Below are positions 10,023 to 39,170 of a stretch of DNA of 64,000 nucleotides, one piece after another; the first letter of the stretch is position 1, and each line of letters opens with the position of its first letter. The DNA comes from an uncultured delta proteobacterium (GTDB taxonomy: Bacteria > Myxococcota_A > Polyangia > Polyangiales > Polyangiaceae). Where the stretch lies: assembly GCA_963827955.1 (NCBI GenBank), contig CAWHDJ010000018.1, positions 1,053,297 to 1,117,296 on the forward strand, in the 5' to 3' direction. Both the position numbers and the translations under genes were made by a program. A model generated the notes under the pieces. The model searched no databases and was not told the DNA's origin. It saw only the letters and a list, made by a program, of their open reading frames with translations.

Positions 10023-10218
10023 GGCGCTCGCGGAGGACGCACGCTTCGTGCCCGAGTTGCCTCCTCCTTATGGAGGAGAAAGGTCCCGGCTGTTCGTGAA
10101 CTGGGCCACCGCGAGAAGACGCCCGTGCGAACGGTTTGCTGCCACACGCCTGCACGGCCCCAGGCGGTGTTCGATCGGAGGTTCGGAGGCAAGCTCCCCG
10201 CGTCGTCGCCGAGCGCGA

Positions 10219-11616: not shown

Positions 11617-11735
11617 CCGGTCCTCCTGCCGCGTGGGGCGCCTCGGGAGCGTCCGGAGTTTCAGCCCCGATCACGGACGGGCAGATGATGGACAAGCGCA
11701 CCTACCGCGATGGATGGGTAGAAGGGAGCGAACCC

Positions 11736-13046: not shown

Positions 13047-13392
13047 AGGCTGGGGACCGACCCCATCGGCCGCAAGGTGGCCCCGCTCCTCACTACGCGC
13101 ACCCCGCCTGCCGACGGTCTAACGCAACGCGACACGCTCGCCGCATTAGGCGTGCGCAGCGCCCACAGCCCGCAGCCACGGCCGCTTCCATCGACCATCA
13201 GGAACCGCTCTGGTCGCGCATCCGCACGCTCTCCCGGGCCCGGCGCCACGTACGAGAACGCCTCGCGCGTCGATTTCCCTAAAAAAAGACGGACACCGGG
13301 AAGGGCCCTACAGCGATGGACGGGTAGAGGCGGTGAAAGGACCGGACCGGCGCCCCGGGGGGGGCGGCGCTTTGCCCGGAGAAGGTGACCCC

Positions 13393-15688: not shown

Positions 15689-15704
15689 AGGTGCGAGGCA
15701 CGTC

Positions 15705-18330
15705 ATGAAGGTCATCAAGCCCATCAAGCTCCCGATTCTCACCCGCATTGTAGAGCGCGCCCATAAGCCGGAAGCTCCACGTTGCCGCCATGCTCGGCTT
15801 CTCGCTTGACGCCCCCCGCGCCCTCCTCGACGAGATGGCCTTCTGGTCCACGGTGGCCGACGCGCTCGGCGCCTCGGGCGTGGTGGACGAGGGGTTCGCG
15901 AAGTGCCGGGGCGAGCTGCTCGTCGCCGGAAGCTTCTTCGCACCGGACGGGATGCCGCTGGCTGCCTCGTACGTCCGCACGAGGGTCGGCGCGGCGGACA
16001 AGCGCCTCGCAGTTGTCGGCAACCGCCTATGGAAAGACCATGCCGCGACCGATCCGGAGCCGATGGTGTCGATGCCGATCGACTGGGCGCACGCGTTCGG
16101 CGGTCCGCGCTTCGACCGGAACCCCTACGGCAAGGGCATCGACCCGCTGGTGAGCGGGGGGCTGGCGATCCCGCTCCCCAACGTCGACCACTACGGCGCG
16201 ATTACGCGCTCACCGGCCGACCGCGGCCAGCCCGCCGGCTTCCTGCCGATGGACGTCACCTTCGCCCAACGGCGGGCGCGCGCGGGGACGTACGATCAAC
16301 ACTGGCTCGACGAGCACTTCCCGGGCCTAGCCGCGGACGCAGCGCCGACCTTCTTCAACGTCGCGCCCGAGGATCAGTGGATCGAAGGCTTCTTTCGCGG
16401 CGATGAGGAAATCCTCGTCGAGAACATGCACCCCGAGCGTCCCCGTATCGAGGGCCGGCTCCCGGGCCTCGCCGCGCGCTGCTTCGTCACCCAGCGCGTG
16501 CCCGAGGGTGAGCGCTTCGTCGAGGTCCCGCTCCGCTGGGACACGGTCTGGCTCTTTCCCTCAGCCGCGGCCGCAGTCGTTATCGCGCACGGTACGCACG
16601 CGGTCTCCGAGGACGACGCCGCGGACGTGGTGCACCTGATCTGTGGGTGCGAGGACCCGACGTCGCAGCGGCCGGCGGAGCATTACCAGCAGGCGCTCGC
16701 ACGCCGCCTCGACAAGGACAAGGGCGCCCTCGCCGGGCTCTCGGACAGTGACCTGATGCCGCCGCGCGCGTCGGGCGTGGCTCCGAATATCGGCGAAATC
16801 GACATCGCGCGGTGGGTGAAGAGCGAGGGCCTGCACGCGAAGAACATGCGGCGGGGCGCACAGCGGACGCGCGCGGAGGTGAGGGCGATGGTCGAGGCAA
16901 ACGGGCTCGACCCGAAGGACTACGGACTCGGCGAACCTCTGCCCGAGCTAGAAGAGCCGCCGGTCGACGACCTCGATGCGCTGGCGGCCTACATGGAGGC
17001 GCAATCGGCGCGTGCGGACGCGATGCTCGCGGAGGCCAGGGACAAGGAGGCGAACGCGCAGGAGGACGTACGGAGGAAGTGCGCGGAGATGGGGGTCGAC
17101 CTCGACGCGATGATGGCGGAGGGAAAGAAGGGGGGCGTGGGGCCGCCGAAGCTCGACGCCGCGACCGAGGTCGAGAGGCTGCGCGATGTAGGCGTGAGAG
17201 GTGCGGAGGTCGACGCACTCAAGGCCGACGTGCGGCGGCAGGAGCAGGGCCTGATCGAGATGTACCGGCGCTTCGGGCACATGCAGCCCGCTGCGACCGC
17301 CATGGATCCGGAGGCGGCGGCGCGGCTGCGGGTGCTCGTCGCGCTCGCGATCGAGACCGGAGAGAGCCTCGCAGGGCGGGACTTTACGGGCGCGAACCTC
17401 TCCGGAATGCGCCTTGGCCACGTCGATCTCGCAGGGGCCTTCCTCGAAGCGGCCGACCTCTCGGACTGCTGGCTCGGCGACGCGAATCTGGAGGGCGCCG
17501 TGCTCGCGAAGGCGACCCTGCGGGGCGCCAGTCTCTTCAGAGCGAGGCTGCGTAGCGCGAATCTCGGCGGCGCTGTGCTCTGCGATGCGGTGTTCGAGCA
17601 CGCGGATCTCACCGATGCCGTGCTGAGCGAGGCCGACCTTGCCGGCGCGCGGTTCGCGGGCGCGACGCTCACGGGCGCGGATTGGATCGAGGCGAAGCTC
17701 GCCGGGGTGGACTTCTCCGGCGCCGTGCTGAGTCAGTGCAACCTGATCAAGGCGGACCTGCGCGGCACGCGCTTTACCCGTGCGGACCTGTCCGACGCGA
17801 ACCTCGTCGAGTGCACACTCGACGGGGCGGACTTCTCGGGCGCCAAGCTGGTGAAGACTACGTTCGTGGGATGCAAGGGTGAAGGAGTGTCGTTTCGCGA
17901 GGCGAATGTCCGGCAGGGGGTCCTCGTGCACGGCTCCTCCTTCGTGCGCGCCGACTTCCGCGATGCAGACATGGAGAAGGCCAACCTCCGGGGGACCGCC
18001 CTCGCGGGAGCGCACCTCGACCGGGCGAACCTCACCGGCGCGGACCTCTCCGAATGCGATGCCACTGGGGCCACCTTCGAGCGCGCAGTCCTCAAGGGGG
18101 CGCTCATGATTCGCACCGGCCTCGTCGACGTAACGCTGCGGGGCGCGAACCTGATGGATGCCCTCGCGTCCAAGGCTCGGCTCGCCGGGGCCGACTTCTC
18201 GGGGGCCAACCTCTTCCGCGCAGACCTCTCCCGTGTGGTCGGTGATGAACGGACGACGTTCGCCGAGGCGGAGCTGGGTCACGTGCGGCTCCTCCCGAAG
18301 GCCAACGTGCATCCCGGAGGTGCCCGATGA
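15705..18330 (+). CDS. DUF2169-like N-terminal domain fused to a long pentapeptide-repeat C-terminus. This is a T6SS accessory or adaptor candidate, with a frameshift near 15770.
   Basis: ATG at 15705 gives MKVIKPIKLPILTRIVER..., a DUF2169-type start. It is then out of frame with ORF 15790..18330. The C-terminal approximately 350 aa are A(D/N)LxGA-type pentapeptide repeats (ANLSGMRLGHVDLAGAFLEAADLSDCWLGDANLEGAVLAKATLRGASLF...). Confidence 0.75.
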
Positions 18331-19424
18331 ACCGCGATCTGCTCATGGACAAGGTGCGGCACGGCGAGCCCATCCGCCGCATGGATCTCTCGCATGTCGA
18401 TCTCGAAGGCGCCGATCTTTCCGGGGCCGTGTTCGAGGAGGTCCGCTTCCCGAAGGCGCTTCACGGGGCGCTGCTCAAGGAATCGGTCTTCGTGTCGTGC
18501 GACTTCACGGAATGCGACCTAGCCGGCGCGGACCTGCACCTCGCCACCGTGTATCGCTCGAAGCTCGACGGTGCGCTCTTCGATGCGGCCAAGCTGATCG
18601 CGGCGAGCTTTGTCGAGAGCAGCGCTGACGGCGCTTCGCTCACAAGCGTCGAGGCCCCGATCGCGAGCTGGGTGAAGACCTCGCTCCGACGCGCGTCGTT
18701 CGTGGGCTCGAACCTCGACCGAGCGAACCTCGTGGAGATCGACGCCGAGGATGCAGTGTTCACGAACGCCAACCTGGAGAAAGCGACGCTCTACCAGGCC
18801 GACCTGCGCACGACCGACCTCGCGGGCGCGAACCTCACGCTCACGACGCTGGTCGAGGCCAAACTGGGGCCGAAGTCCTTCTCCGGCATCCGGCTCTTCC
18901 GGACGCAGTTCATGAAGAGCGACCTCGCGGGCGCCAGCTTCGCAGGCGTCGACTGCACGCAGTGCAACTTCATGGCGGCGGACCTCCAGGGGGCGACGTT
19001 CGAGCGGGCCACGGGGCCGCAGTGCTTCTTCGGCGAGGCGAAGCTCCAAGGTGCGAGGCTCGTCGGCGGCGACTTCCGCCAGGCCGTGTTCGAGAAGGCG
19101 GACCTCTCGAAGGCGGATCTCTCTGGCGCGATGCTCGAGGAGGCGTACTTCGCGCTCGCCGTCGCCGTGGGAGCTCGCTTTCGCGACGCCAGGCTGCGAG
19201 AGGCGAACTTCTCTCACGCCGACGCCACGGCGGCCGACTTCTCCGGGGCGGCTCTCTTTCGGACGAGGTTCCACCGCGCGAAGCGCGACGGCGCCGCCCT
19301 CGCCGAGCTGGCGGGGTGGCTCGGCGATGACGAGAACCTCGCAAGGATCGAACGCTGGCAGCCGCAACACGGGGCGGCGCCTGATCGAGATGTGGACGGG
19401 CAAAGGAAAGGGTCGGAACGATGA
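18327..19424 (+). CDS. Pentapeptide-repeat protein associated with the T6SS module.
   Basis: Start overlaps the upstream stop (ATGA). Repeats include DLSHVDLEGADLSGAVFEEVRF, ANLEKATLYQADLRTTDLAGANLTL and ADLQGATFERA. Confidence 0.8.
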   Translation: MNRDLLMDKVRHGEPIRRMDLSHVDLEGADLSGAVFEEVRFPKALHGALLKESVFVSCDFTECDLAGADLHLATVYRSKLDGALFDAAKLIAASFVESSADGASLTSVEAPIASWVKTSLRRASFVGSNLDRANLVEIDAEDAVFTNANLEKATLYQADLRTTDLAGANLTLTTLVEAKLGPKSFSGIRLFRTQFMKSDLAGASFAGVDCTQCNFMAADLQGATFERATGPQCFFGEAKLQGARLVGGDFRQAVFEKADLSKADLSGAMLEEAYFALAVAVGARFRDARLREANFSHADATAADFSGAALFRTRFHRAKRDGAALAELAGWLGDDENLARIERWQPQHGAAPDRDVDGQRKGSER

Positions 19425-20065
19425 ACGCCGCGAAGAAGCTCGCTAGCACGGAGACGTACCTCGAGACCGGGACGGTGGAGCGCATCCTCAGCGGGACGGT
19501 CGAGGTGCGGCACGCCTCGGGAACCTGCCAAGCCCGGCGCGCGAAAGGTTGCCTCGTGCCTCCCGAGATCGGCGACACGGTGCTCTGCGCGCGAAGCGCG
19601 GAGGGCGCGTGGGTGCTCACCGTGTTGGAGGGCGAGGCGGGCGCGCCGACGCGGCTCGTCGGGGACGGCGACGTGCACATTCAGTCCCAGGGCGGCCGGG
19701 TCACGATCTCCTCGCCCGAGCGGGTCGACCTCGTGAGCGGCGGCGCCGTCGCGGTAAGCTCAGCCGAGCTCCACGTGCACGCCCGCAAGGGCTCCGTCGC
19801 CGTGGACGAGCTGGGCTTCCTCGGCAAGCTGGTGCGGGCGGAGGTGGCGAAGATCGTCGTGGTCGCCGAAGAGGTGGACTCCGTTCTCACGCGGCTGACC
19901 CAGCGGGCCAAGCGCGTCTTCCGCTTCGTCGAGGAGATCGACCAGACGCGCGCCGGCACCGTCGACATGCGCGCCCAGAACCTCGTCGGCATCCGCGGGG
20001 AGAACGCCGTGATCTCGGCGCGGGTGCTCGCCAAGATCGACGGTGAGCAGATCCACCTCGGCTGA
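19421..20065 (+). CDS. DUF3540-like protein, which commonly follows pentapeptide-repeat genes in vgrG islands.
   Basis: 214-aa ORF with overlapping start (ATGA). The call rests on gene context and size and was made from memory of the family, not from a search. Confidence 0.6.
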   Translation: MNAAKKLASTETYLETGTVERILSGTVEVRHASGTCQARRAKGCLVPPEIGDTVLCARSAEGAWVLTVLEGEAGAPTRLVGDGDVHIQSQGGRVTISSPERVDLVSGGAVAVSSAELHVHARKGSVAVDELGFLGKLVRAEVAKIVVVAEEVDSVLTRLTQRAKRVFRFVEEIDQTRAGTVDMRAQNLVGIRGENAVISARVLAKIDGEQIHLG

Positions 20066-20092
20066 GCGACGAGCAAGGAAGGAGGCTCCTCC

Positions 20093-20494
20093 ATGTTGGC
20101 GAAGACATCCGCTGGCGGGCTCTGCACCGCATTTCCGGACGTGTGCCTGACACCCGCACCGCCCGCGCCCGCGCCGGTCCCGATCCCCTACCCGAACATC
20201 GGCGCCAATCCCACCAACGTGAGCTTCGTGCCCAACGTGCTCCTGACGTGCGCCCCGGCGCACAACATGGGCACGCAGCCACCGATGACGAACGGTGACA
20301 ACGCCGGCCTGGCAACCGGCGTCGCCTCCGGGACCGTGATGGGCCCGGCGCGCACGGTGACCGCGGCGTTCACAGTTCTCGTCGGGGGCATGCCGCTCGC
20401 ACGGCTCACCAGCGTGACGATCCAGAACAACACGAACGCCCCCGGCGCCAAGGTCGTGCCCAGCGCCACCAACGTCCTCGTCCTGGCCCCGTGA
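20093..20494 (+). CDS. DUF4150 (PAAR-like) domain protein. It is a standalone 133 aa with no fused toxin domain.
   Basis: MLAKTSAGGLCTAFPDVCLTPAPPAPAPVPIPYPNIGAN..., the PAAR-like DUF4150 N-terminal signature. It ends 10 bp before the next ORF, which is in a different frame. Confidence 0.7.
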   Translation: MLAKTSAGGLCTAFPDVCLTPAPPAPAPVPIPYPNIGANPTNVSFVPNVLLTCAPAHNMGTQPPMTNGDNAGLATGVASGTVMGPARTVTAAFTVLVGGMPLARLTSVTIQNNTNAPGAKVVPSATNVLVLAP

Positions 20495-23570: not shown

Positions 23571-26500
23571 ATGGAAGCTGGAGCCATTTTGCAGGGTCGC
23601 TACCGCGTGGTCCGCGCAGCGGGCGCCGGCGGCATGGGCGGCGTCTATCGCGCCGACAATCTCGCCACGGGCCGCGCCGTCGCGCTGAAGGTCCTCCTGC
23701 ACCAAGACGCCGCCGCGTCGAGCCGCTTCGTGCAGGAGGCCCAATCGCTCGCGGCGGTGAGCCACCCGGCGATAGTCGGCTACGTGGACCACGGCGTGGC
23801 CGAGGAGGGGCGCCTCTTCCTCGTGATGGAGTGGATCGAGGGCGAGGATCTCGCGGCGGTGCTGGCGCGCGGGGCGATGGCTCCGACGGAGGCGCTCGCC
23901 GTCGCGCGCCGCGTGGCGGCCGGGCTGGCCGCGCTACATGCGGCGGGCGTCGTGCACCGCGACCTGAAGCCCGCGAACGTCGTGCTGGAGAGCGGCGATC
24001 CGGCGCGCGCGCGCATCGTCGACCTCGGCATCGCACGTGCAGGATGGCGCACGCGGGCACTGACACGCACGGGCGCCATCCTGGGGACCGCGGGCTACAT
24101 GGCCCCTGAGCAGATCGAGGCGTCGCGCGGCGCCGACTCGCGCGCGGACGTGTACGCGCTCGGGTGCGTCCTGTTCGAGTGCCTCGCGGGCCGGCCGGCG
24201 TTCGATGGCGGGCACCTGCTCATGGTGCTCGCGCGGGCGTTGGGCGACGAGCCGCCGCGCCTGCGCGAGATCGTCCCCGGCGTGCCGGACGAGATCGACG
24301 CGTTGGTTGCGCGGATGATGGCGCGCCACCCGGCGCAGCGCCCCGAGGACGGCGCCGCGGCTCTTGCGGCCCTCGAGCGCGTCGCGGCGTGGGGGGACGC
24401 CGCCTCCACCGCGGCGCCGGGCGCGGCGGAGGGCGTGCCTCTGCGGGGGGAGCGGAGGCCCCTGGGCCTTGTGCTCGCGCGCGCGCCAGACGACCTAGCC
24501 GACGCGACGATGGACGCCGCCGACGCCGGAGCCGCGCACGCGGCCGCAGATGTGGTCGCGGCCCGCTGGGGAGCGCGCGCGTGGAGCTTCGGCGCCGACG
24601 CCCTGGCGCTCGTCGTTCAGCACCCGGGCGGCGCGCGCGAGCAGGCTGCGCGATCCGCGCGAGCGGCGCTCGATCTGGAGGCGAGGCTCCCCGGGTGGAC
24701 CCTCGCGGTGGCGACCCCGAGCGCCGACATGAGCGGCGAGGTGCTGGCCGCCGTAGTCGACCGCGCGGCGGGGCTGCTCGTGGCGGGCGCCGGAGGCGTG
24801 CGGCTCGACCCGGTGACGGCCGCGTTACTCGACGTGGGCTTCGACGTCGAGCACACGGGCGCGGGGGCGCTCCTCTGCGGCTTCTCGGCGGCGCGCGACG
24901 ACGCCCGGCCGCTCCTGGGCAAGCTGACGCCGTGCGTGGGCCGCGAGGCGGAGCTGCGGTTGCTCGAGGGCGCGCTCGCCGCGTGTGACGACGAGCAGGC
25001 CCCGCGCGCGGTGGTCGTGCTCGCCGACGCGGGCTGGGGGAAGTCCAAGCTCCGCCGCGAGATCATCGCGCGCGCCCGCGAGCGGGGGACGGTGCGCGTC
25101 GTTCAGGCGCGCGCGGAGATGGACGGCGCGCTACACGGCCTCGGGATCGTGCGCTCGCTGCTCGCCGACGCCGCCGGGCTCGGCGACGAGGCGGGCTCAG
25201 CGCGCTGGCGGGCGCTCGCTGGGCACGTCGAGCGGACGATCGCGGGGGCGAGTGCGGACCTCGTGGAGATTTGCGGCGAGCTCGCGGGCGCGCCCCCGCC
25301 GGAGCCGGGGGAGGCGCTCCGAGCCGCGCGCAAGGATCCCGCGGAGCTGCGCTGGCGGGCGATCGAAGCGGTCGCGGCTTGGCTGCGGGGCGAGGCCCGC
25401 GAGCGGACGGTGCTCGTGTCGCTGGAGGATCTGCACCAGGCGGACGCCAGCAGCGTCGGGGTGCTCGTCGAGGCATGGAAGGAGCTGGGCGACACGCCGG
25501 TGCTCCTCGTCGGCACCGCCCGACCCGAGGTCGACGACCTGCACCCTCACCTCTTCGCGATGCGCGGGATGCAGACGGTGCGGCTCGGCCCGCTAGCGCG
25601 CCGCGCAGCGGAACGGCTCGCGCGGCAGGCGCTCGGCGACGGGACGCCGGCGGATCGCGTCGCCCGGATCGTCGACCGCGCGGGCGGCCACCCGCTGCTC
25701 CTGGAGGAGCTGGTGCGCCACGCAGCCGCCGCGCGCGACGACGCCGAGGCGCCGGCGTCGGTGCTCGCGCTCCTGCAATCGCGCCTGCTCGCGCTCGATC
25801 CGGCGGCGCGCCGCCTGCTCCGCGCGGCGAGCGTGTTCGGGGAGCGCTTCCCGCCCGAGGGGGTCCTCGCTTTGCTGCCGGAAGGCGCACGCGCCGACGT
25901 CCCCGTGCTGCTCGACGCGCTGACGCACGAGGAGCTGGTCGTCGCCCCTCGGCGGGGCGCGACGGACGCCGAGGGGTACGTCTTCCGGCACGCGCTCGTG
26001 TGCGCCGCCGCCTACGACATGCTGCCCGCGGACGAGCGCGCGGCCGCCCACCGCGCGGCGGCCGCATGGCTCGCAGCGCGCCCCGAGTCCGACGAGGCGG
26101 CCGTCGCCGATCAGCTCGCGCGGGCCGGCGACGCCGCCGCAGCCGCGCCGTGGTTCCTCCGGGCGAGCCGGAGAGCGGCGGAGCGCAGCGGGGTCGTCGA
26201 GGCGATCGCGCTCGCGCGCCGAGGGCAAGCCGACGGCGTGGACGTCGGGCTCCACGTCGAGCTGGTCGTCGAGGAAGCCTGGGACCTCATGAACCTCGAA
26301 GACCTTGCCGCCGCTTTCACGGCGCTCCACGACCGGGTGCCCTGGTCCCGCCTCCGGGTCGGGTCGCCCCTGTGGGTGATGGCGAAGGCGAGCGAGGCGG
26401 CGCTGGCCGGCTTCGCCAGCGAGCCAGGAGCGCTCGTCGAGGGCGTCGGCGCCCTGCTCGCGCAGACGGTCGAGCCCCCTCCTCCCATCGAGACGTGGGG

Positions 26501-27413
26501 CCGCGCTGTCGCGCTGCTGGTGCCCGCGCTCGTCCACCTGGCGATGGTGGACGAAGTCCGTGCGCTGCTGGCGCTCGCCGAGCGAAGCGGGCCGCTGCGA
26601 GATGACGATCCCTTCCTGGCGTTCCTCGAATTTGCACGCGCTGGCCATCACCTGTGCACCGACAGCGGGGCCGCGATCGCCGAGATCCGTCGGTGCGTCG
26701 ATCGGTCGAAACGGGCCGGCCTGCGCGATCGCCACGGGTTCGCCGCGGTCGCAGCCGTTATCCTCGCGGTCGCCGGCTGCGCCGGCGAGGCGACCTCCGT
26801 CGCGCGCTCGACGCGCGCGCACGTCGAGCGCCGGCGCGAAGGCTTCTATGCCAACTGGATCACAATCGCGGAGCTGCTCACCCGCATCTACCGCGAGTCG
26901 CCGGAGAATTGCGAAGCGTACGCGGCGCGGCTCAACACGACAGACTGGGTGAGCTTCGCGTACGGAAAGGCGGACGCCAGGATGAGCGCGGCGCTCGCGG
27001 CCCCTGGCGATCGCGGTGTGGTCGATGCGGTCTTCGCCGACATCTCGGGGATGGCGGAGGCACTCGTGACGTTCTCGACCGTCTCGATGACGCTGGCCTC
27101 GTTCCTCGCGCACCTCGAGCTGATGCGCGAGCACCCCCTCGAGGCGCTCGCCCACTCCGATCGCGGTCTGCGAGACTTCGTGACCGGAGACATAAGCGCG
27201 CGCACCTCGCTGCGGCTGTCGCGGATCCGCGCCCTCGCGGCGCTCGGCCGGCACGATGACGCGCGCGCCGCGCTGCACGAGGCCCGTGCCCGCATCGCGC
27301 GCATCGCCTCTGAGATCGAGCGCCCGGAGGACCGGGCCGCCTTTCTCGCGCACCCGCTGAGCGCGGAGACGCTCGCATTCAACATGTCCAGCCCGGCGGG
27401 GCTCGGCGCCTGA
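23571..27413 (+). CDS. Ser/Thr protein kinase with a large C-terminal ATPase/TPR-like regulatory region (1280 aa).
   Basis: Hanks kinase motifs: GAGGMGGVY, VALKVL, HRDLKPANVVL, DLGIARAG, GTAGYMAPEQ. A P-loop-like segment (ADAGWGKSKLRRE) lies downstream, followed by Ala/Leu-rich helical repeats. Confidence 0.85.
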   Translation: MEAGAILQGRYRVVRAAGAGGMGGVYRADNLATGRAVALKVLLHQDAAASSRFVQEAQSLAAVSHPAIVGYVDHGVAEEGRLFLVMEWIEGEDLAAVLARGAMAPTEALAVARRVAAGLAALHAAGVVHRDLKPANVVLESGDPARARIVDLGIARAGWRTRALTRTGAILGTAGYMAPEQIEASRGADSRADVYALGCVLFECLAGRPAFDGGHLLMVLARALGDEPPRLREIVPGVPDEIDALVARMMARHPAQRPEDGAAALAALERVAAWGDAASTAAPGAAEGVPLRGERRPLGLVLARAPDDLADATMDAADAGAAHAAADVVAARWGARAWSFGADALALVVQHPGGAREQAARSARAALDLEARLPGWTLAVATPSADMSGEVLAAVVDRAAGLLVAGAGGVRLDPVTAALLDVGFDVEHTGAGALLCGFSAARDDARPLLGKLTPCVGREAELRLLEGALAACDDEQAPRAVVVLADAGWGKSKLRREIIARARERGTVRVVQARAEMDGALHGLGIVRSLLADAAGLGDEAGSARWRALAGHVERTIAGASADLVEICGELAGAPPPEPGEALRAARKDPAELRWRAIEAVAAWLRGEARERTVLVSLEDLHQADASSVGVLVEAWKELGDTPVLLVGTARPEVDDLHPHLFAMRGMQTVRLGPLARRAAERLARQALGDGTPADRVARIVDRAGGHPLLLEELVRHAAAARDDAEAPASVLALLQSRLLALDPAARRLLRAASVFGERFPPEGVLALLPEGARADVPVLLDALTHEELVVAPRRGATDAEGYVFRHALVCAAAYDMLPADERAAAHRAAAAWLAARPESDEAAVADQLARAGDAAAAAPWFLRASRRAAERSGVVEAIALARRGQADGVDVGLHVELVVEEAWDLMNLEDLAAAFTALHDRVPWSRLRVGSPLWVMAKASEAALAGFASEPGALVEGVGALLAQTVEPPPPIETWGRAVALLVPALVHLAMVDEVRALLALAERSGPLRDDDPFLAFLEFARAGHHLCTDSGAAIAEIRRCVDRSKRAGLRDRHGFAAVAAVILAVAGCAGEATSVARSTRAHVERRREGFYANWITIAELLTRIYRESPENCEAYAARLNTTDWVSFAYGKADARMSAALAAPGDRGVVDAVFADISGMAEALVTFSTVSMTLASFLAHLELMREHPLEALAHSDRGLRDFVTGDISARTSLRLSRIRALAALGRHDDARAALHEARARIARIASEIERPEDRAAFLAHPLSAETLAFNMSSPAGLGA

Positions 27414-28215
27414 GCCGAGTTCTGCTCCGTTGTCTCTCGACCCTCGGCGGCCTCGTCGACCCGCTCGTCGACTCCGTGCGGTCGTTCTGCTCGGGCGCTG
27501 CGACGCGTTCTCGCCGACGCTTTCAACTTGCTCGTCGCGGAGGCAACCAGCCCGGTCTGCCCAGCCCTCGGGGTCCCCGGGGGCAACTGGACCATCTTGA
27601 GGGACGACGAGCCCGCCAATCAACCGACTGGAGAGGGGAGGAACATTTGATCGCCCGAGGGAGGAGGAACTGATCGCCGCTCCCAGGGCTGGTGCGCCTC
27701 CGGGATCTCATGGGGCCCGTCGGGCTCACACGCTACCGGCTGCCGGCGCGCTGCACCCGCAAGATGCGGGCACCCAGCATGCCACCGAGGGTGCGCGCGT
27801 CCCCCACCCCTCGTCCTCGGTAGGACGGTGACGCCCCCCTGGCTGACAAGGCCGTCGGCCCCTTCACGCCGCTTGCGGCCTACCTCGGCGAGGTCATTCG
27901 CCTCGTCTGCCGGACGAGCACGCGGCCTGGGCGGCGGCCCAGGACGCGGCCATCTGCCAGCCAGCCCGTCCTGTGGTCAAAGCACCCTGCCACCGCTGAG
28001 TCGCGGACGCGTGCGGTCGCTGACCATCATGATGCTCACAGCGCGCCCCGAGGGGTTGACGCCATCTGGGAAGCGCGCGCTATGCGCAAGGCCATGCTGG
28101 GCCTGGTAGTCGCGATCACAGTCCGTCAGCCGCACGAACGCGTCGACGAAGGGGATCGCCCGCCGCGCGTGCCGGTGTTAACGCGGTCGCGAGGCGCGCG
28201 CTACACGCCCGCACC

Positions 28216-28863
28216 ATGTTGGGGCTCGTCATCTCCACGGGCATCGCGGTCGGGCCGCCGTCCCCATCCGACGGCGGCTTCATCACGCGGCACAAGATCC
28301 ACGTCTTCACTTTCGACAAGGAAGAGCGGGAAGATACCCCGCCGCCGGTTGAAATGGGCCGGATTGAACTGGCCGTGGTCCACGTCGCAGCAGCGGATGA
28401 GAGCGCGGCCAGTCTAGGCGACGTGCTGTACTGCGCGGGCCCGGACTTCAGGAAGCTGCACGACACGTACTTCGACGAGTTCGGACTCTTCAGGCATCCG
28501 TTCCGCAGCAGTCCCGGCGCGGGCCTCGCGTTCGTGGAGCGCATCACGCTCGACCCTCCGTGGCTCGGGCGCAACATCGACCTCGCGATCGTCCATCGGC
28601 TACGGCAGACCCTCGCCGAGGGCTGCAAGCTCCTCGTCGTGGACTCCGCCTCCCGCGAGGAGGCGGAGCACTGGATGCAGATCGGGTTCGAGCACTCTCG
28701 CGCCGGGCAGGAGCACGGCTTCATGCACCTGTCAGGCCGCGGTCATCCGCGAATCGCAGAGGAGCCGAACGACGAGCATCGCTTCAAGGTCGTCCCGCCG
28801 AGTCGGTTCGCGTGGGTAGACGAGGACGACAAAGCAGACGACGAGGGCGACGAAGACGCTTGA
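28216..28863 (+). CDS. Hypothetical protein of 215 aa with an acidic C-terminus, inside the putative integrated element.
   Basis: Coding-like ORF (…ELAVVHVAAADESAASLGDVLYCAGPDFRKLHDTYFDEFGLF…LAIVHRLRQTLAEGCKLLVVDSASREEAEHWMQIGFE…). No recognisable domain and the start is uncertain. Confidence 0.4.
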   Translation: MLGLVISTGIAVGPPSPSDGGFITRHKIHVFTFDKEEREDTPPPVEMGRIELAVVHVAAADESAASLGDVLYCAGPDFRKLHDTYFDEFGLFRHPFRSSPGAGLAFVERITLDPPWLGRNIDLAIVHRLRQTLAEGCKLLVVDSASREEAEHWMQIGFEHSRAGQEHGFMHLSGRGHPRIAEEPNDEHRFKVVPPSRFAWVDEDDKADDEGDEDA

Positions 28864-29031
28864 CGTGCGCCGCTCCAGCGCGGCACGGCAGCACGGTGGC
28901 TGCACGACAACCGTCCCGATGGTGCGGGTGCTGCTTGCCCCGCGATGGCTCTCCTCGGCATCGCCGCGGGGCGCGCGCCGCGCTGAAGCACGCGCGCGCA
29001 GCACCAGCGCAAGCTAACGTCGTCGCGACAA

Positions 29032-29514
29032 TCAGGGGCGTCTCTTTCGGGGAGGTTCCTGCTTGGACTGTATGCGTCCGGCTATCGCGTCGCTGCGCGC
29101 TCCGGGTCGGGAGAGATCCGCGCTCGCGGTCATCACGCTCACATGGGAGCCTCCATCCACGACCGTGACGACCCCGAGGTTGTGGCACACCATCCAAGTC
29201 AATAGGGGAGCCAGCTCGGGTCGGTGCATCGCGGCGCTTCGGGAGGTCACGCAGTCCCCGGTCACCGGGTTGCTGTGGGTGGTGCCAGCGTCGGGCGGCC
29301 ACGCATCGCCCAGGAGTTGTTCGGGAAGCACGCACAGTGCCGCAGCCAAGAGCCGCAGGTTCTGCTCCTTCGGCGGATACGCCCCGTACTCGTACCGCTG
29401 GATGCGCTTCACATCGATGCCCGTGCGCTCCGCGAGGGCTTTCTGCGTCAGGCGCGCGAGTCGGCGAAAGTGTGCGAGGCGCTGGCCGAACTCGGCGTTC
29501 TCGGATGGCGACAT
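29032..29514 (-). CDS. XRE-family (Cro/CI-type HTH) transcriptional regulator.
   Basis: Internal Met at 29514: MSPSENAEFGQRLAHFRRLARLTQKALAERTGIDVKRIQRYEYGAYPPKEQNLRLLAAALCVLPEQLLGD, a classic XRE HTH. The upstream part of ORF 29032..29820 (MDRLMDRLMDRL...) is read from the tandem repeat and is rejected as coding. Confidence 0.6.
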   Translation of the reverse strand: MSPSENAEFGQRLAHFRRLARLTQKALAERTGIDVKRIQRYEYGAYPPKEQNLRLLAAALCVLPEQLLGDAWPPDAGTTHSNPVTGDCVTSRSAAMHRPELAPLLTWMVCHNLGVVTVVDGGSHVSVMTASADLSRPGARSDAIAGRIQSKQEPPRKRRP

Positions 29515-29775
29515 CGGTCGGGAAACCTCCGCAAGCGGGATTGACGGCTGCGAGCGCGCGCAGCGGGTCCACCCACGGGAGCGCCCCGGTGGATGGCGTG
29601 CGCTGACGGCGTACCCATCAGGCTCATCGACGCGTGCCCAACCCGAGTTGCGTGGATCACCAAATATTTTCGCGCGGCGTCTGGTGCGCAAACAATCGCC
29701 CCAGCGCTCAGCCACGATGCCCCGGATCCGCACGCCTGTCCGGCAACCGCATCGGGGCGCTTTTGTCAAGCGAGG

Positions 29776-29822
29776 GACGGTCAACAGACGGTCCATCAGA
29801 CGGTCCATCAGACGGTCCATCC
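29776..29822. repeat. Four tandem copies of a 12-bp unit (GACGGTCAACA, then GACGGTCCATCA twice, then GACGGTCCATCC), lying between the XRE gene and the serine recombinase gene.
   Basis: Read directly: gggacggtcaacagacggtccatcagacggtccatcagacggtccatccagg. Confidence 0.85.
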
Positions 29823-30619
29823 AGGCTGGCCGTGCGCGTGGGGTTCGCTATCCCTTGCGCCCTCTCGCCCCACCCAGTGCCACGTGATGGCGAGGCCGCT
29901 CGGCTTCCCTCTCGGAGCCCCCCGACGGCGCGGTGCGGGAGGGATGTGAGCAAGCCGTGAACGAATCGACGCAGAGCGAGTCAGCAGACCAGTCCTCGAA
30001 CCCCGCGGATGTCCCATCCCAGCCGGCCGCGGGCCTTCCACCACGTACACGCAGACCGATGCGTGACGTACCGATGCTCGGAGCACCGCCGTGGCTCTGG
30101 GCGGCCAGACCGTCGCCGAGCACGTCGTTCGGTACGCCAGCCCACCATGCGAAGCGGTTCGGTGCTCGACGGCGTCGACGGCCCGCTGGCCTTCGTGTGT
30201 ATCATCGGTCCGCAACGAGGAGGATGTGCTCGCCGCCCAAGCCCACAAGCTCGACGACGCTGCGCTGGCGCCGCAACCTCGCGACGTCCGTGGTGGTCGC
30301 AGGAGCCGCGTCGTGAGCGGCGACGGAGCCCGCAGGCACCCGAGGACCCCCGCGACGCGCACGCGGGAATGCTGCGGCCGCCCTCGAGCGTCTTACCGTG
30401 TGCAGGTCGAGCGCTCGGCGCCCGACGCGTACACCGCTCAGATCAAGGTCATGGACGACGCCGCCACTCCACATCCCGACGAAGAGCTCGCACCGGGCGT
30501 GTTCGATGTGGTGGGAGAGCTGCTGCTGGAGCTGACGCGCGAGGGGACGGGATGAAGCACATCGGCGAGAGAGTGCGGCTGATTCTGTTCGTGGACTGGT
30601 GCGGCTCCGGAACGCTTCC

Positions 30620-32290
30620 ATGCGTTCTACGTCCGGGTCACGAAGAAGGAGTCGCTGCGGACGGACCTGTCGATCCCCAACCGAGATCGCAAGGTCTCAC
30701 GAGGTGGCGGCGCAACGCGGCTGGGGCGACTACTGCATCTACGTCGAGCTGACCGACGTCAATGCCAAGTGGTGGGTGGAGAAGCGACCGGCGTTCAAGC
30801 GGCTCGTCGAGGACATCCGCGCGCGGCGCGTCATCGCGGTCTGTGCCCGGCACACGGACCGGCTCTGGCGGGGCGACATCCAAAACAAGTTCCTGAAAGA
30901 GCTGAGCGATCATCGCGCCGAGCTGTGGGACTTCACGTGCCAGCGCGAGTTCAAGAGCGCACAGGGCCGCTTCGCCATCCAGATGCTCAGCGCCGCGGGC
31001 GAGTACGAGGTGAACCTCACCGGCGAGCGCATCCGCGAGATGAAGCGTGGCAAGGCGCTCGGGGGCCAGCCCGGCGGTGGACCGCCTCCCTTCGGCTACA
31101 CCTCACAGTCCCGCCGCAAGCTGGCCTTGGTCGAATCCGGAGCCGAGGACGATGAAGCCTACCGTCAAGCGTGCGTGGCGTTTCCCATCGGTAACGCGTG
31201 GTACATCGACGAGGTTGAGGGCCCGGTCGTCCGGATCATCTTTGCGCTCTACACCGCGCCGGACACGCAGTGGGGTACGAAGCGGATCGCACGCTACCTC
31301 AGCGCGAACGGCCATAGAGCGCGCGAAGGGGGGCCGTGGTCCTCGAACACCATCCGCAAGCTCATCGCGAACCCGGTCTACGGCGGCTACACGACCTTCG
31401 ACGAGGATGCCTACACGGAGAAGGTTCCGTCATCGCTGCCGCGCCGCCGTCAGAAGCGCTTCCAGGGGAAGCATCCGCTCATCATTCCTGCTGAGCAGTG
31501 GGAGCGCGCGCAGGAGATCCGCGACACCCAGCACTCGTTCAAGCGCACGCGTCCGGGCCCCAAGTCGAGCGAGGTCTTCTCGCTCGTCGGCATCCTGCGG
31601 TGCCCGAAGTGCGGCAAGAGCATGATCGGCAAGCTGGCTGGCAGCTCAAACAAGTCGCAGAGGCGCTACTACATGTGCGGCCTTCGCCACACTTCGGGCC
31701 CTGACCAGTGCGACTTCCCGCTGATCGACGCAGTGGCCCTTCAGCGTGAGGTCTGGAGCTGGCTGCACGACGTCCTGCAGCTCACCCGCCTACGTGCACG
31801 AGCACGTGCAGCGGCTGCAAGCGAAGCTCGCGGCGCAGATCCCGGACCTCGAGCGCAGCGTCGGCGTGCTGGACCGGCGCGAGACCGAGGTGCGCGCGGC
31901 GATGGCCAAGTATTTCCGCTTGCTCGAGGCGTCCGACGATCGCGAGCGTGACGCGCCCCTTCTGGAGCGGGTGCGCGAGCTGGGCGCTGAGCTGCGTAGC
32001 GTACAGGCCACGCTCACGGAGGTGCGACGTGAGGCGGTGGCGGTTCCCGCGCCGACGATCAGCGTCGAGCAAGTTCAAGCGTACCTGGCAGCGCTGCGCA
32101 CCCGCGTTGACGAGCGCCCGGGACTCCAGCGAGCCGTGTTCCACCAGTTTCGCCAGGACCACGACCTGGACGTCCGCCCCGTCTCCAAGACCGAGTTCGT
32201 CCTGTCGATCGCCTTCCGCGCCGGCCAATTCGTGCATACCGGGAACGCGGGGCGGAAGGGCACCGGGCGGCTGTACGCCGTGGTGAGCCC
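30620..32290 (+). CDS. Large serine recombinase with resolvase catalytic domain, recombinase domain, zinc ribbon and coiled-coil. At least three frame changes are needed, near 30625, 30680 and 31780. The end is approximate.
   Basis: AFYVRVTKKESLRTDLSIPNQ (catalytic Ser region) appears in one frame. Then LEIARSHEVAAQRGWGDYCIYVELTDVNAKWWVEKRPAFKRLVEDIRARRVIAVCARHTDRLWRG follows in ORF 30599..31951. The recombinase domain has FGYTSQ and ANPVYGGY. The zinc ribbon is CPKCGKSMIGK...YYMCG. The coiled-coil continues in ORF 31746..33140 (VQRLQAKLAAQIPDLERSVGVLDRRETEVRAAMAKYFRLLE...). Confidence 0.8.
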
Positions 32291-32319
32291 AAGCACATCA
32301 CGGGGTGGGTCAGAGGGCG

Positions 32320-33083
32320 CAGGTTTGCCGGATCCCGCGCTGCCGAGGACGAGGAGGGGCTCGGCCGGGTCGCGGTCGAGGATGGCGCGCTGCTCGGCGT
32401 CGAGCAGCGCCGTGATCCGGCCGGCGCCCCGCGGCTCGGCGGGGGCATCCGCCTCGACGGCGAAGCCGGAGGGCCCGCGCTCCGCCTCGAAGCGCCACGC
32501 GCCTCCGCCGCGCACCAGCGCTCCGCCCGGCACGCCGATCGCCGCGAAGCTCGCCCTGCTCGAACGCGAGCACGTGCCGGCGCTCCAGCACCCCCTCGAT
32601 CACCCTCCCGTCGGCCTCGACCTCGTAGTCGTCCCCGGGCTCGGCCGTGAAGAGCACCTCGGCGATCGGGGCCCTCTTCCAGTCGACCACGGTGACGCCG
32701 CGCGCCGGGTCGAGGAAGGGGCGCGCCCCGAGGAGCACGTCGCGCGATCGGCCCGCCGTCCGCACGCGCAGGTGGGCGAAGTACGGCTCGTCCAGGTCGG
32801 GCAGGCGCGCGGCGGACGCCGCCTCGTCGCGCGCGGCCTCCTCGTGGAGCTGCGCCAGCACCGCGGGCCGGTCCTCCTCGCCGGCTGCCGCGTACGCCTC
32901 GCGCAGCGACGCGAGCGCCCCGAGCCTCGCCTCGGCGCGCGCGGGCTTCCTGCAGCGCGCCTCGCCCACCGCCTCGCGCACCGCGGCGAGCAGCCGCTCC
33001 TCGTCCACCGCGATGGAAAGCTCCTCGGCCGTGAGCGGCCGCGCGTGCCTCTCCTCCATCGTCCCTCCGTGCCGGCGTCGCAC
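32320..33083 (-). pseudogene. 5' fragment of a HelD/UvrD-like helicase gene. It has an N-terminal domain and reaches the Walker A motif GSAGSGK, then loses coding character exactly where it meets the recombinase gene's 3' end. There is also an internal frameshift near 32520.
   Basis: ORF 32310..33083 has a plausible N-terminal domain. ORF 32075..32533 carries ITALLDAEQRAILDRDPAEPLLVLGSAGSGKP, a UvrD-type N-terminus. Downstream of that, the minus strand is antisense to the recombinase C-terminus. No helicase motifs Ia to VI are found anywhere else in the window. Confidence 0.5.
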
Positions 33084-38513: not shown

Positions 38514-39170
38514 TCACGGGAACGTGACGACCACGGCGACCGACCAGTCCGACTTGGCTTGCCCGCGCAGGAGCGCGAAACGAACCAGTACCTGCGTGCC
38601 CGGCGCGCCCGTCAGCTTGCGGGACTTGCCGGTGCCGTCCAGATCCGTGTAGCTCGGCGTCGCAGTGTTGGGGCTCCACTGCGCCGCGTACTTCTGACGG
38701 GTCTGGCCCAGCTCGTGGACCGAGGCCGTCGCCTTGCCCGAGCCCTTCTTCCCGGGCTTGATGTCGATCTGCTCGGGGGGCACGAGGGGGGGCGGCGGCG
38801 GCCTCCCCGCGTAGGCGAGGAGGCCCATGCTCGTGATGTCGGACTCGCTCGTGGCGTTGTTCTCGACCAGCTTGCGGATGAGCCCGAGGCTCTTGTTGAC
38901 CGCAATCTGGGCCGATTCCTCCGCCGCGACGTCGAGCGCGTGCTGCTTCGCGCTCTGCCCGGCCGTCTGCCGCGCGCCCACCAAGGTGGCCTGGACCTTC
39001 CCCAGGTTCGCCACCTCGTCTTGAATGCCTTTCACCGCGTAGAGTGGGCTCTGCGGCGCCATCTTCAACATGGCGGCCACGAGCTTCTCCTGGGCGTTCG
39101 GATCCGCGTTGAGCGCGTTGAGCGCCAGGAGGACGTGGTACTGGTTCGTCGGTTGCTTCTTTTTGGCCAT
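38514..39170 (-). CDS. Hypothetical protein.
   Basis: Internal Met MAKKKQPTNQYHVLLALNALNADPNAQEKLVAAMLKMAPQSP... of ORF 38514..39281, with coding-like composition. Confidence 0.45.
   Translation of the reverse strand: MAKKKQPTNQYHVLLALNALNADPNAQEKLVAAMLKMAPQSPLYAVKGIQDEVANLGKVQATLVGARQTAGQSAKQHALDVAAEESAQIAVNKSLGLIRKLVENNATSESDITSMGLLAYAGRPPPPPLVPPEQIDIKPGKKGSGKATASVHELGQTRQKYAAQWSPNTATPSYTDLDGTGKSRKLTGAPGTQVLVRFALLRGQAKSDWSVAVVVTFP

What the first reader, a model, noticed from the sequence alone, without database searches (positions are those of the whole stretch)
27420..32320. Lower-GC insert of about 5 kb bounded by a large serine recombinase gene that abuts a truncated HelD/UvrD-like helicase gene, a candidate small integrative element
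The stretch 29000-30600 is visibly less GC-rich than its surroundings. That is an estimate by eye, roughly mid-60s percent against about 70%. The insert contains an 800-bp apparently non-coding leader, a hypothetical 215-aa protein, an XRE repressor-like gene on the opposite strand, a 4x12-bp tandem repeat, a possible small ORF (approximately 30091-30555, ending ...AYTAQIKVMDDAATPHPDEELAPGVFDVVGELLLELTREGTG) and a large serine recombinase with a zinc ribbon and coiled-coil. The recombinase 3' end meets, head-on, a helicase gene that stops making sense exactly at that junction (Walker A GSAGSGK, then noise). The rest of the helicase is not present anywhere in the window. This fits an element that integrated into, or next to, a helicase gene, with subsequent loss of the distal part. 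The alternative is that the helicase fragment is cargo of the element.
Basis: partly seen in the sequence, partly recalled or inferred. Interest (0 to 1): 0.55.

Follow-up and report, generated by a model that had tools for sequence, protein, structure and literature searches.

The report
Recombinase element end splitting helicase gene
This stretch is one end of an old mobile element that inserted itself exactly at the ATP-binding-loop codons of a helicase gene. Its recombinase belongs to a myxobacterial family that normally targets the same motif in comM and, oddly, has threonine where the catalytic serine should be.

Summary
The features are real, but this is not a self-contained 5-kb element. 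Window 32324/32325 is a base-exact junction. To the right, the helicase N-half and its upstream genes are collinear with a related genome. To the left, collinearity stops inside the Walker A codons (GSAGSG|K), next to a recombinase arm (GGTGGGTCAGAGGGCGCAGGTTT).

The recombinase belongs to a family from Polyangiaceae and related Myxococcota. The family's ~50-bp attP lies inside its own reading frame, and its usual attB is the Walker A codons of comM; here the target is a HelD/UvrD-like helicase.

The missing helicase C-half is not deleted. It is protein P0286, on the same 1.78-Mb source contig but outside the window. Its leader GGSEGAGF|GKTT matches the partner arm.

No left attachment site exists in the window. 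The element is therefore either longer than 32 kb or was later broken near 27.4-28.2 kb.

The recombinase reads in four frames (three +1 shifts) and the helicase N-half has one +1 shift. This looks like decay, although sequencing error is not excluded.

All ~87 family members carry Thr at the nucleophile position, which I found unreported.

The parts
27414..28215 (.). Unassigned spacer between the kinase stop codon and the 215-aa gene. It is the candidate position of a later truncation or rearrangement breakpoint. It is not an att site.
   Evidence: There is no convincing ORF and only a weak GC3 signal. No arm motif or inverted partner was found. Relatives show no homology here.
28216..28863 (+). 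215-aa hypothetical protein with an acidic C-terminus; presumed cargo.
   Evidence: GC3 is 0.85 and GC is 65.9%. There were no Pfam, PHROG or NCBIfam hits. The sequence is 99.9% identical (2 mismatches in 1666 nt) in the independent Logan contig L001.
29032..29511 (-). XRE/Cro-C1-type HTH regulator (about 160 aa; the 262-aa ORF running to 29820 is probably over-extended).
   Evidence: Pfam HTH_31 6.8e-11 and HTH_3 3.8e-8. PHROG transcriptional repressors and NCBIfam RstR-like hits are below cutoff. The GC3 frame signal covers only 29050-29550.
29776..29821 (.). 12-bp direct repeat GACGGTCCATCA, 3.9 copies, in the divergent intergenic region. Possible operator or binding sites; this is inferred.
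   Evidence: TRF score 78, 94% matches. The independent contig L001 ends inside the repeat.
30226..30555 (+). Small acidic ORF conserved immediately upstream of every family recombinase. Candidate accessory or directionality factor; this is inferred.
   Evidence: The conserved C-terminal motif ..F.LSD..LDVV..LL.E.ARE is present in L002-L016. tblastx matches L002. A GAGGAGGAT Shine-Dalgarno sequence precedes the GTG at 30226, and the stop overlaps the recombinase ATG as ATGA.
30552..32326 (+). Large 'serine' recombinase, interrupted. Homology runs in frames starting at 30552, 30589, 30677 and 31779. The +1 shifts lie at about 30588, 30684 and 31778. The ORF is also cut off from any C-terminal extension by the att junction.
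   Evidence: Pfam Resolvase, Recombinase and Zn_ribbon_recom. Three tblastn HSPs fall in three frames against P0002/3/5/6. There are 6-7 changes at otherwise invariant family positions, against a median of 1 in the other members.
32304..32335 (.). Hybrid attachment site. The element arm GGTGGGTCAGAGGGCGCAGGTTT occupies 32304-32326. The shared core TTGCCG (reverse complement CGGCAA) lies at about 32325-32330, and the inferred central CC at 32328-32329. Helicase codons follow.
   Evidence: Comparison with intact attB in L018, L019 and L021. Comparison with attP in L017 and hybrid sites in L003 and L008. The reciprocal leader is in P0286.
32324..33059 (-). N-terminal third (~245 aa) of a HelD/UvrD-like helicase. 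It ends at Walker A GSAGSGK and carries one +1 insertion at ~32546.
   Evidence: tblastn with P0120, P0129 and P0130. DNA alignment with L018, L019 and L021. Synteny with L021. Full-length homologues match HelD/HelR NCBIfam models below the cutoff.

Best explanation
Window ~28.2-32.3 kb is the recombinase-proximal end of an integrated mobile element of a Myxococcota family of large 'serine' recombinases (LSRs).

**Family mechanism**
- The enzyme recognises a ~50-bp attP with inverted-repeat arms (GTGGGYCWGAGG ... CCTCTGACCCAC) that lies inside its own reading frame.
- It recombines attP with an attB made of the Walker A codons (GxxGxGK[T/S]) of a P-loop NTPase gene, usually comM.
- Exchange occurs at a central GG/CC dinucleotide placed within a few bases of the third glycine codon.
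- Integration cuts the recombinase off from a C-terminal CxCGCG/HTH extension and leaves it reading into the target gene.

**In this genome**
- The target was a HelD/UvrD-like helicase. Its N-half (33059 to 32324, minus strand) now faces the recombinase 3' end.
- Its C-half (P0286) lies elsewhere on the same contig behind the partner arm.
- The copy is probably old and immobile. The recombinase has three +1 frameshifts, and the orphaned helicase N-half has one at a similar density.
- The low-GC 5 kb is not a complete element. I think it most likely that a later rearrangement or deletion, with a breakpoint in 27414-28215, separated it from its left part. The alternative is an element longer than 32 kb that runs off the window.

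**Shown:** the junction to the base, family membership, the split rather than deleted helicase, and the absence of a left att site in the window.
**Inferred:** the exact crossover dinucleotide, the DNA sequence of the partner arm (only its protein translation was seen), the reality of the frameshifts, and the rearrangement.
For: - **Domains and family.** The ORF has Resolvase, Recombinase and Zn_ribbon_recom domains. There are 90 relatives at 31-60% identity.
- **Recombinase 3' ends abut comM halves broken at GPPGxGK** in L003, L008 and L012-L016. At least 37 of 90 relatives have tails that are antisense comM P-loop, and 7 of 90 are uninterrupted with the extension.
- **Intact attP lies inside the ORF** in L017, L022 and L023.
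- **The window junction is GGTGGGTCAGAGGGCGCAGGTTT|GCCGGATCC.** This is the arm followed by the antisense of GGA TCC GGC AAA. Intact orthologues read ...GGCTCCGGCAA|GACCACGG.
- **blastn synteny with L021** (window 33862-32325 and 37656-35288) stops at 32325.
- **Full-length helicases of 750-780 aa** align only up to Walker A.
- **P0286 (520 aa)** is on the same 1,783,973-nt contig and begins MARSNRMGGSEGAGF|GKTTVALH. This is the same peptide as the recombinase tail, SRGGSEGAGL.
- **Frameshifts** are documented. The neighbouring host genes of 314, 392, 770 and 1280 aa are intact.
- **GC dip**.
Against: - The DNA at the P0286 junction could not be retrieved. The partner arm and the 50-bp attP reconstruction therefore rest on a 9-residue peptide plus codon inference.
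- The distance and orientation between the two helicase halves are unknown, so 'rearranged' and 'very large element' are not resolved.
- The frameshifts could be consensus errors. A relative with a nanopore-style contig name (L021) shows four indels in the same GC-rich gene. No read data were available.
- Only one helicase-site insertion is documented. A second candidate, P0120, could not be checked.
- The window copy is the most divergent family member, so its excess of changes at invariant sites is confounded by phylogenetic isolation.
Confidence: 0.8

Rival explanations
1. The element is intact and large (>32 kb), extending leftwards beyond the window and carrying the kinase, the VgrG cluster and other genes. 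The frameshifts are sequencing errors, so the recombinase could still be active.
For: The helicase C-half with its partner arm exists on the same contig. No left end lies within 32 kb. Relatives' elements are longer than 10 kb and ICE/plasmid-like. L021 shows that indels in this GC-rich gene occur in similar assemblies.
Against: Genes left of 27413 are host-like: porin, sigma-54 activator, histidine kinase and STK, with the kinase at GC 75.5% and GC3 0.90. The GC dip is confined to 28-32.3 kb. The four indels cluster in 2.5 kb, while long neighbouring ORFs of 770-1316 aa are intact. The window copy deviates at 6-7 otherwise invariant residues.
Confidence: 0.25
2. One reading: a complete ~5-kb integrative element bounded at 27420 and 32320, with the distal helicase part deleted.
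For: The GC dip is about 5 kb long and starts just after the kinase stop codon.
Against: The helicase C-half is not deleted (P0286). No arm, core or inverted partner lies near 27420. No recombinase C-terminal extension is present in the window. No family member is seen with a partner comM half within 10 kb.
Confidence: 0.04
3. The helicase fragment is cargo carried by the element rather than a disrupted host gene.
For: None beyond the adjacency.
Against: The fragment and its upstream neighbours (314-aa and 770-aa genes) are collinear with L021 at 74% nucleotide identity, up to the junction base. Helicase GC3 is 0.98, which is host-like.
Confidence: 0.01
4. The junction is an assembly chimera in a metagenome-derived contig.
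For: The source looks like a MAG. The indels cluster locally.
Against: The break falls exactly at the family's crossover position, with the conserved arm. The reciprocal product exists. A random misjoin would give neither.
Confidence: 0.03

Closest known systems
Phage WO sr1WO large serine recombinases, which integrate into the Wolbachia magnesium chelatase (comM/yifB-type) gene (PMC9203015)
   Same: An LSR-driven insertion splits a Mg-chelatase-family gene, leaving halves on either side. A secondary attB (WOCauB3) is described, as are prophages later rearranged so that each fragment keeps one gene half. That is the situation I infer here.
   Different: The hosts are Myxococcota. The window copy is in a HelD/UvrD-like helicase, not comM. 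The family has Thr at the nucleophile position and attP inside the recombinase ORF. I did not test sequence relatedness to the WO recombinases.
Gene-splitting LSR elements: SPbeta SprA in spsM and skin SpoIVCA in sigK (established knowledge; skin in PMC5025042, SPbeta integrase structures in PMC11722253)
   Same: A large serine recombinase gene sits at one end of an element that interrupts a host ORF. attP/attB are ~40-50 bp. Excision needs a small directionality factor.
   Different: Identity is only ~25% (PDB 9dxh hit, E 3e-4). There is no sporulation-linked excision. Here the recombinase is frameshifted and the two gene halves are not within 32 kb of each other.
comM as a hotspot for mobile elements (AbaR/Tn7-like and others in Acinetobacter; PMC11472951)
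   Same: The target gene is the same as the one used by most members of this recombinase family.
   Different: Those insertions use Tn7-like transposition, not an LSR, and are not described as aimed at the P-loop codons.
Pseudo-attB / secondary-site use by serine integrases (PhiBT1 in Nocardia, PMC5937489)
   Same: An LSR integrates at a site that only partly resembles its normal attB. Aligned codon by codon, the helicase P-loop shares about 60% of bases with a composite comM site, concentrated in GGC...GG. AAG ACC (my reading of the sequences printed).
   Different: It is unknown whether the window lineage had switched specificity or mis-integrated.
Integration-dependent truncation of a phage gene by an internal attP (mycobacteriophage BPs/Brujita; recalled from memory, not checked here)
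   Same: attP inside a coding sequence means that integration changes the C-terminus of the protein.
   Different: Those phages use tyrosine integrases, and the affected genes are the repressor or integrase degradation tag. Here an LSR loses a Zn/HTH extension.

Membership tests
Large serine recombinase (LSR) family | N-terminal resolvase-type catalytic domain | tested here: met
   Pfam Resolvase 1.3e-11 for the window ORF (profile positions 21-141). The first 20 profile positions lie in another frame. The match is full-length in P0021.
Large serine recombinase (LSR) family | Serine nucleophile in the Y-x-R-x-S motif | tested here: not met
   The window reads FYVRVT. 87 family members have Thr in the column where canonical relatives (P0092-P0119) and Gin (sequence recalled from memory) have Ser. 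The conserved Arg and the DRLxR motif are retained.
Large serine recombinase (LSR) family | Recombinase domain plus zinc-ribbon domain with an embedded coiled-coil | tested here: met
   Pfam Recombinase 5.2e-19 and Zn_ribbon_recom 5.6e-10. The segment 31779-32200 aligns with the family's post-ribbon region. No coiled-coil predictor was run.
Large serine recombinase (LSR) family | ~40-50-bp attP/attB with inverted half-sites around a central dinucleotide that sets orientation | tested here: met
   attP in L017 is 48 nt with 13-nt arms carrying 2 mismatches. attP is also present in L022 and L023. Hybrid sites diverge from attP at the centre. A central GG goes with the recombinase facing the sense C-half, and CC with it facing the antisense N-half. 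The window attP is reconstructed only in part.
Functional, mobile integrative element | Intact recombinase ORF | tested here: not met
   Three +1 frameshifts. Their reality could not be verified without reads.
Functional, mobile integrative element | Both junctions (attL and attR) flanking a contiguous element | tested here: not met
   Only one junction lies in the window. The other is inferred from P0286, at an unknown position on the same contig.
comM-targeting subgroup of this recombinase family | Recombinase 3' end abuts a comM half broken at GPPGxGK | tested here: not met
   The window contains no comM. The abutting gene is a helicase.
HelD / UvrD-like SF1 helicase (the target gene) | N-terminal domain followed by the UvrD-helicase, AAA_19 and UvrD_C domains | tested here: inconclusive
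   Full-length orthologues carry PF00580, PF13245, PF13361 and PF13538. They match the HelD/HelR NCBIfam models only below the cutoff (108.7 bits against 419). The window keeps only the N-terminal domain up to Walker A.

The most novel reading that the evidence does not exclude
The window gene is a decayed member of a widespread, naturally active clade of 'serine' recombinases. In this clade the nucleophile is threonine, or the invariant serine four residues later. The attP lies inside the enzyme's own ORF, so integration removes a Zn/HTH C-terminal domain. The attB is the near-universal Walker A coding sequence, which would let the clade hop between P-loop genes, from comM to a HelD-like helicase here.
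Probability: 0.45. Interest if true: 0.8.

Novelty: new variant of a known kind. Interest (0 to 1): 0.58.

Why it matters
**For this genome.** The locus is a dead or dying remnant. It explains a split helicase gene and a local GC dip, and little more.

**For the field.** The recombinase family behind it is of wider interest, for four reasons.
- It would be the first recombinase clade of this superfamily with Thr in place of the catalytic Ser. It is evidently mobile in nature, because both attP forms and integrated forms exist. That makes the chemistry directly testable with T-to-S, T-to-A and S(+4)-to-A mutants.
- It gives a sequence-level reason why comM is a recurrent integration hotspot: the attB is the P-loop codons themselves. 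It also gives a natural example of the same machinery landing in another P-loop gene.
- An attP inside the recombinase ORF, which removes a Zn/HTH domain on integration, suggests a built-in switch between the integrating and resident forms of the enzyme.
- LSRs are genome-engineering tools, so a clade with a short, motif-defined target may be useful.

Tried and rejected
- **Left att site.** I searched for the arm motif with up to 2 mismatches and for direct and inverted repeats over 20-34 kb. Only chance-level matches appeared.
- **Recombinase C-terminal extension in the window.** tblastn found nothing.
- **Rest of the helicase in the window.** tblastn with full-length homologues found nothing.
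- **Position of P0286.** Cluster look-up gave no accessions, only the contig length.
- **DNA of P0120**, a possible second helicase-site insertion. The sample file was too large, and the contig was not returned by the metagenome scan.
- **Synteny for the left flank.** L018-L021 share nothing with window 1-27413.
- **tRNA or ncRNA as the target.** There is no tRNA in the region (the only one is tRNA-SeC at 39027) and no Rfam hits.
- **Function of the 215-aa protein and of the 'leader'.** Pfam, PHROGs and NCBIfam gave no hits, and six-frame inspection found nothing.
- **Conserved cargo across family loci.** Only the recombinase and the small upstream ORF are shared.
- **Solved-structure alignment to place the nucleophile.** The alignments start after residue 70, so I used MAFFT with canonical relatives instead.
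- **Literature on Thr-nucleophile recombinases.** Nothing was found.
- **Methylation-motif-linked nanopore errors as the cause of the indels.** Considered, because GATC and CTGCAG lie nearby. Rejected as a general cause, because such motifs are frequent and other genes are intact.

Full report
**1. What is in the sequence**

The window is high-GC (71.7%). Its gene content and best homologues (Polyangium, Sorangium) are myxobacterial.

Composition of the flagged stretch:
- The stretch 27420-32320 has 68.0% GC, among the lowest 1% of 4.9-kb windows.
- It sits between a 75.5% GC Ser/Thr-kinase gene (23571-27413) and a 78.0% GC helicase fragment.
- The only other comparably low stretch is a VgrG cluster at 13.4-18.6 kb.

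Contents, from left to right:
- About 800 bp with no convincing coding signal.
- A 215-aa ORF with no family match.
- A minus-strand XRE-type HTH gene, probably only ~160 aa.
- A 12-bp direct repeat, 3.9 copies.
- A small ORF ending at 30555.
- A recombinase with Resolvase, Recombinase and Zn_ribbon_recom domains.
- A convergent helicase fragment.

An independent short contig (L001, Logan assembly of ERR11523675) reproduces 28149-29814 with two mismatches.

**2. The recombinase is not an intact gene**

tblastn with the closest intact homologues (P0002, P0003, P0005, P0006; 55-57% identity) gives three collinear HSPs in three frames:

| Segment | Content |
|---|---|
| 30589-30684 | SWTGAAPERFHAFYVRVTKKESLRTDLSIPN |
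| 30677-~31778 | middle of the protein |
| 31779-~32330 | C-terminal part |

- The likely start is the ATG at 30552. It overlaps the small ORF's stop as ATGA and lies in a fourth frame.
- Each change of frame is a single extra base. The contexts are CTG-T-TCG, AAC-CGAG-ATC (against CAG) and CTG-C-AGC.
- The reading frame has no stop until 33140.
- The helicase fragment also carries one extra T at ~32546 relative to three orthologues.
- Neighbouring host genes of 314, 392, 770 and 1280 aa, and several others over 700 aa, are uninterrupted. General assembly error is therefore unlikely.
- Indel density is about the same in the orphaned helicase N-half (1 in 0.74 kb) and in the recombinase (3 in 1.77 kb). 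This fits both having drifted since insertion.
- The window copy differs at 6-7 otherwise invariant family positions, against a median of 1. This is weak support, because it is also the most isolated lineage.
- Caveat: a relative with a nanopore-style contig name (L021) shows four indels in the same GC-rich gene, and I had no reads. The frameshifts are therefore probable, not proven.

**3. The junction**

- Full-length homologues of the helicase are 750-780 aa. They carry UvrD-helicase, AAA_19 and UvrD_C domains and resemble HelD/HelR below the curated cutoffs.
- They align to the window only up to Walker A, ending at 32324. Nothing else in the 64 kb matches them.
- Three metagenomic orthologues and one MAG (L018-L021; 57-75% identity) have the gene uninterrupted apart from L021's four small indels.
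- In helicase sense they read ...CTCGGCAGCGCGGGCTCCGGCAA|GACCACGGT....
- The window reads ...CTCGGCAGCGCGGGATCCGGCAA|ACCTGCGCCCTCTGACCCACC....
- blastn of L021 against the window shows collinearity of the helicase N-half and the upstream 314-aa and 770-aa genes. It stops exactly at 32325.
- None of L021's downstream genes is present in the window.

This rules out 'natural short helicase' and 'helicase is cargo'.

**4. What the recombinase family does elsewhere**

Ninety relatives at 31-60% identity were found. Loci came from one genome scan, one viral scan and exact look-ups.

Targets:
- In L003, L012, L013, L015 and L016 the recombinase 3' end meets the antisense N-terminal half of comM, broken at GPPGxGK.
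- In L008 and L014 it meets the sense C-terminal half (GSGKTMLARRLP...).
- At least 37 of 90 proteins have read-through tails that are antisense comM P-loop (...PGGP...). Two are in-frame fusions to the ComM C-half.
- Other members sit in a VgrG gene or a secreted-protein gene, so targets have diversified.
- No second comM half lies within 10 kb upstream.

Nature of the elements:
- Cargo differs between loci. Only the recombinase and a small acidic upstream ORF are shared.
- One relative carries Replic_Relax, DUF87, TrwB-like and R-M genes. Another carries a 1613-aa primase-polymerase.
- These are therefore ICE/plasmid-like elements well above 10 kb.

**5. attP lies inside the ORF**

- Seven proteins (695-751 aa) are uninterrupted. 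They continue into a conserved C-terminal extension with CxCGCG...HGHH and a MerR-like HTH.
- In L017 (IMG/VR contig) the ORF runs through GTGGGCCTGAGGG-AACAAGCTGCG|GAAAGCCCGAG-CCCTCTGACCCAC, a 48-nt site with inverted arms. L022 and L023 have equivalent sites.
- Integrated relatives match attP up to the centre and then switch to comM. Compare L008 ...GGCAGCG|GAAAGACCATG and L012/L013 ...CTTGCC|CGTGCC with L022 ...CTTGCC|CAAGACC.
- The centre is GG when the recombinase faces the sense C-half and CC when it faces the antisense N-half. This is as expected for a polarity-setting central dinucleotide.
- The crossover lies within a few bases of the third Gly codon of GxxGxGK.
- The window junction (GGTGGGTCAGAGGGCGCAGGTTT|GCCGGATCC) fits this pattern. 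The arm is identical over 12 nt to L003's, the centre is CC, and the break lies in G|GC AAA.

**6. The other helicase half exists**

- I searched with the C-terminal 503 aa of the L018 orthologue. This returned P0286 (520 aa, 73% identity, 100% coverage) from a contig of 1,783,973 nt.
- P0286 begins MARSNRMGGSEGAGF|GKTTVALHRVA. GGSEGAG(F/L) is the peptide encoded by the arm at 32304-32326 (recombinase tail ...SRGGSEGAGL).
- L017's partner arm, read in reverse, also encodes RGSEGSGF.
- The GK codons (CGGCAA) occur at both junctions, as a common core should.
- This gives a ~50-bp attP: arm-CGGC-inverted arm. The DNA of the second arm is inferred from the peptide only.
- The helicase was therefore split by insertion, not truncated by deletion.
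- I could not retrieve P0286's position.

**7. Extent of the element**

- The right boundary is exact.
- There is no left boundary in the window: no arm, no extension ORF and no helicase C-half.
- Genes left of 27413 are an OprB porin, a sigma-54 activator, a histidine kinase, an IS, a VgrG-PAAR cluster, an FHA protein and an STK. They look chromosomal or accessory rather than part of this element. GC steps up sharply at the kinase.
- I therefore favour a later rearrangement or deletion with a breakpoint in 27414-28215, at roughly 55-60%. The alternative is an element longer than 32 kb, at roughly 25-40%. Phage WO offers a precedent for prophage halves that each keep one target-gene half (PMC9203015).

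**8. Comparison with what is known**

- LSR elements that split host genes are well known (SPbeta, skin).
- LSR integration into a Mg-chelatase/comM-type gene is described for Wolbachia phage WO, including secondary sites.
- comM is a known hotspot for other element types.
- The window feature is thus a new, degraded member of a known kind, at a new target.

Three family features go further:
- All ~87 members with an N-terminus have Y-x-R-[VL]-T-x-x-E-S where canonical enzymes have Y-x-R-x-S-T-x-x-Q. I found no report of this.
- attP is internal to the ORF.
- The target is the P-loop codons themselves.

**9. Verdict**

It is wrong about size, completeness and loss of the distal half.
- The locus itself is of modest interest. 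The recombinase family it exposes deserves follow-up.

Noticed in passing
window 30610-30627 (FYVRVT); all family proteins P0002-P0091: Threonine occupies the column of the catalytic serine in every family member with an N-terminus (84 match [YFC]xR[VL]T and 3 more read ERVT or QRVT). Distant canonical relatives keep Ser. The +4 position, Gln in the canonical RVSTxxQ, is an invariant Ser here. I found no literature on this.
   Followed up: partly
L017 11612-11659; L022 ~1916-1965; L023 within 10001-12247: attP lies inside the recombinase ORF. Uninterrupted proteins (695-751 aa) carry a C-terminal CxCGCG..HGHH plus MerR-like HTH extension. Integration separates this extension from the enzyme.
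   Followed up: partly
window 30226-30555 and the region just upstream of the recombinase in L002-L016: A small acidic ORF with a conserved C-terminal helix (..LDVV..LL.E.ARE) always precedes or overlaps the recombinase start. It may be a directionality or accessory factor.
   Followed up: partly
P0286 (same source contig, outside the window): The arm-encoded leader recreates a P-loop-like GAGFGKT in front of the helicase C-half. The 520-aa ORF has no frameshift, unlike the N-half.
   Followed up: no
P0120 (JGI 3300047160, 1506-nt contig): A 66%-identical helicase orthologue breaks a few codons after Walker A (GSGKTTV|DPRG). VDPR could encode the GACCCAC arm motif, which would make this a second helicase-site insertion. 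The DNA could not be retrieved.
   Followed up: partly
L021 9452-11704: The closest relative's helicase is called as two proteins (160 + 567 aa) because of four small indels. The contig name is nanopore-style, so this is a warning about indel errors in very GC-rich genes.
   Followed up: yes
L002 2462-3856; L006/L007/L009 downstream of the recombinase; L010 ~4140: Some family members use targets other than comM: a VgrG gene, a secreted protein beginning ...FCGFYVAGADD, and a gene encoding ..IVAEGMGSLHG.
   Followed up: no
P0077, P0080: These are recombinase ORFs fused in frame to the ComM C-terminal half (Mg_chelatase and Mg_chelatase_C Pfam hits). They are products of sense-orientation integration.
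   Followed up: no
L023 (Logan SRR27730035, 27-kb contig); L003 3495-8336: Relatives' elements carry Replic_Relax, DUF87, TrwB-like and Eco57I/XamI R-M genes plus a tyrosine integrase (L023), or a 1613-aa primase-polymerase (L003). They are ICE/plasmid-like rather than tailed-phage-like.
   Followed up: partly
window 13385-20494: A VgrG-DUF2169-pentapeptide-DUF3540-PAAR-like cluster forms the other low-GC stretch of the window (about 67-68%).
   Followed up: no
window 10219-11616: A minus-strand IS-type transposase (rve, HTH_Tnp_1).
   Followed up: no
window 39027-39118: A tRNA-SeC (anticodon TCA) is the only tRNA in the window.
   Followed up: no
window 29776-29821 / end of L001: The independent Logan contig ends inside the 12-bp repeat array, and its other end is at 28149. 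The ends may mark assembly-graph branch points.
   Followed up: no
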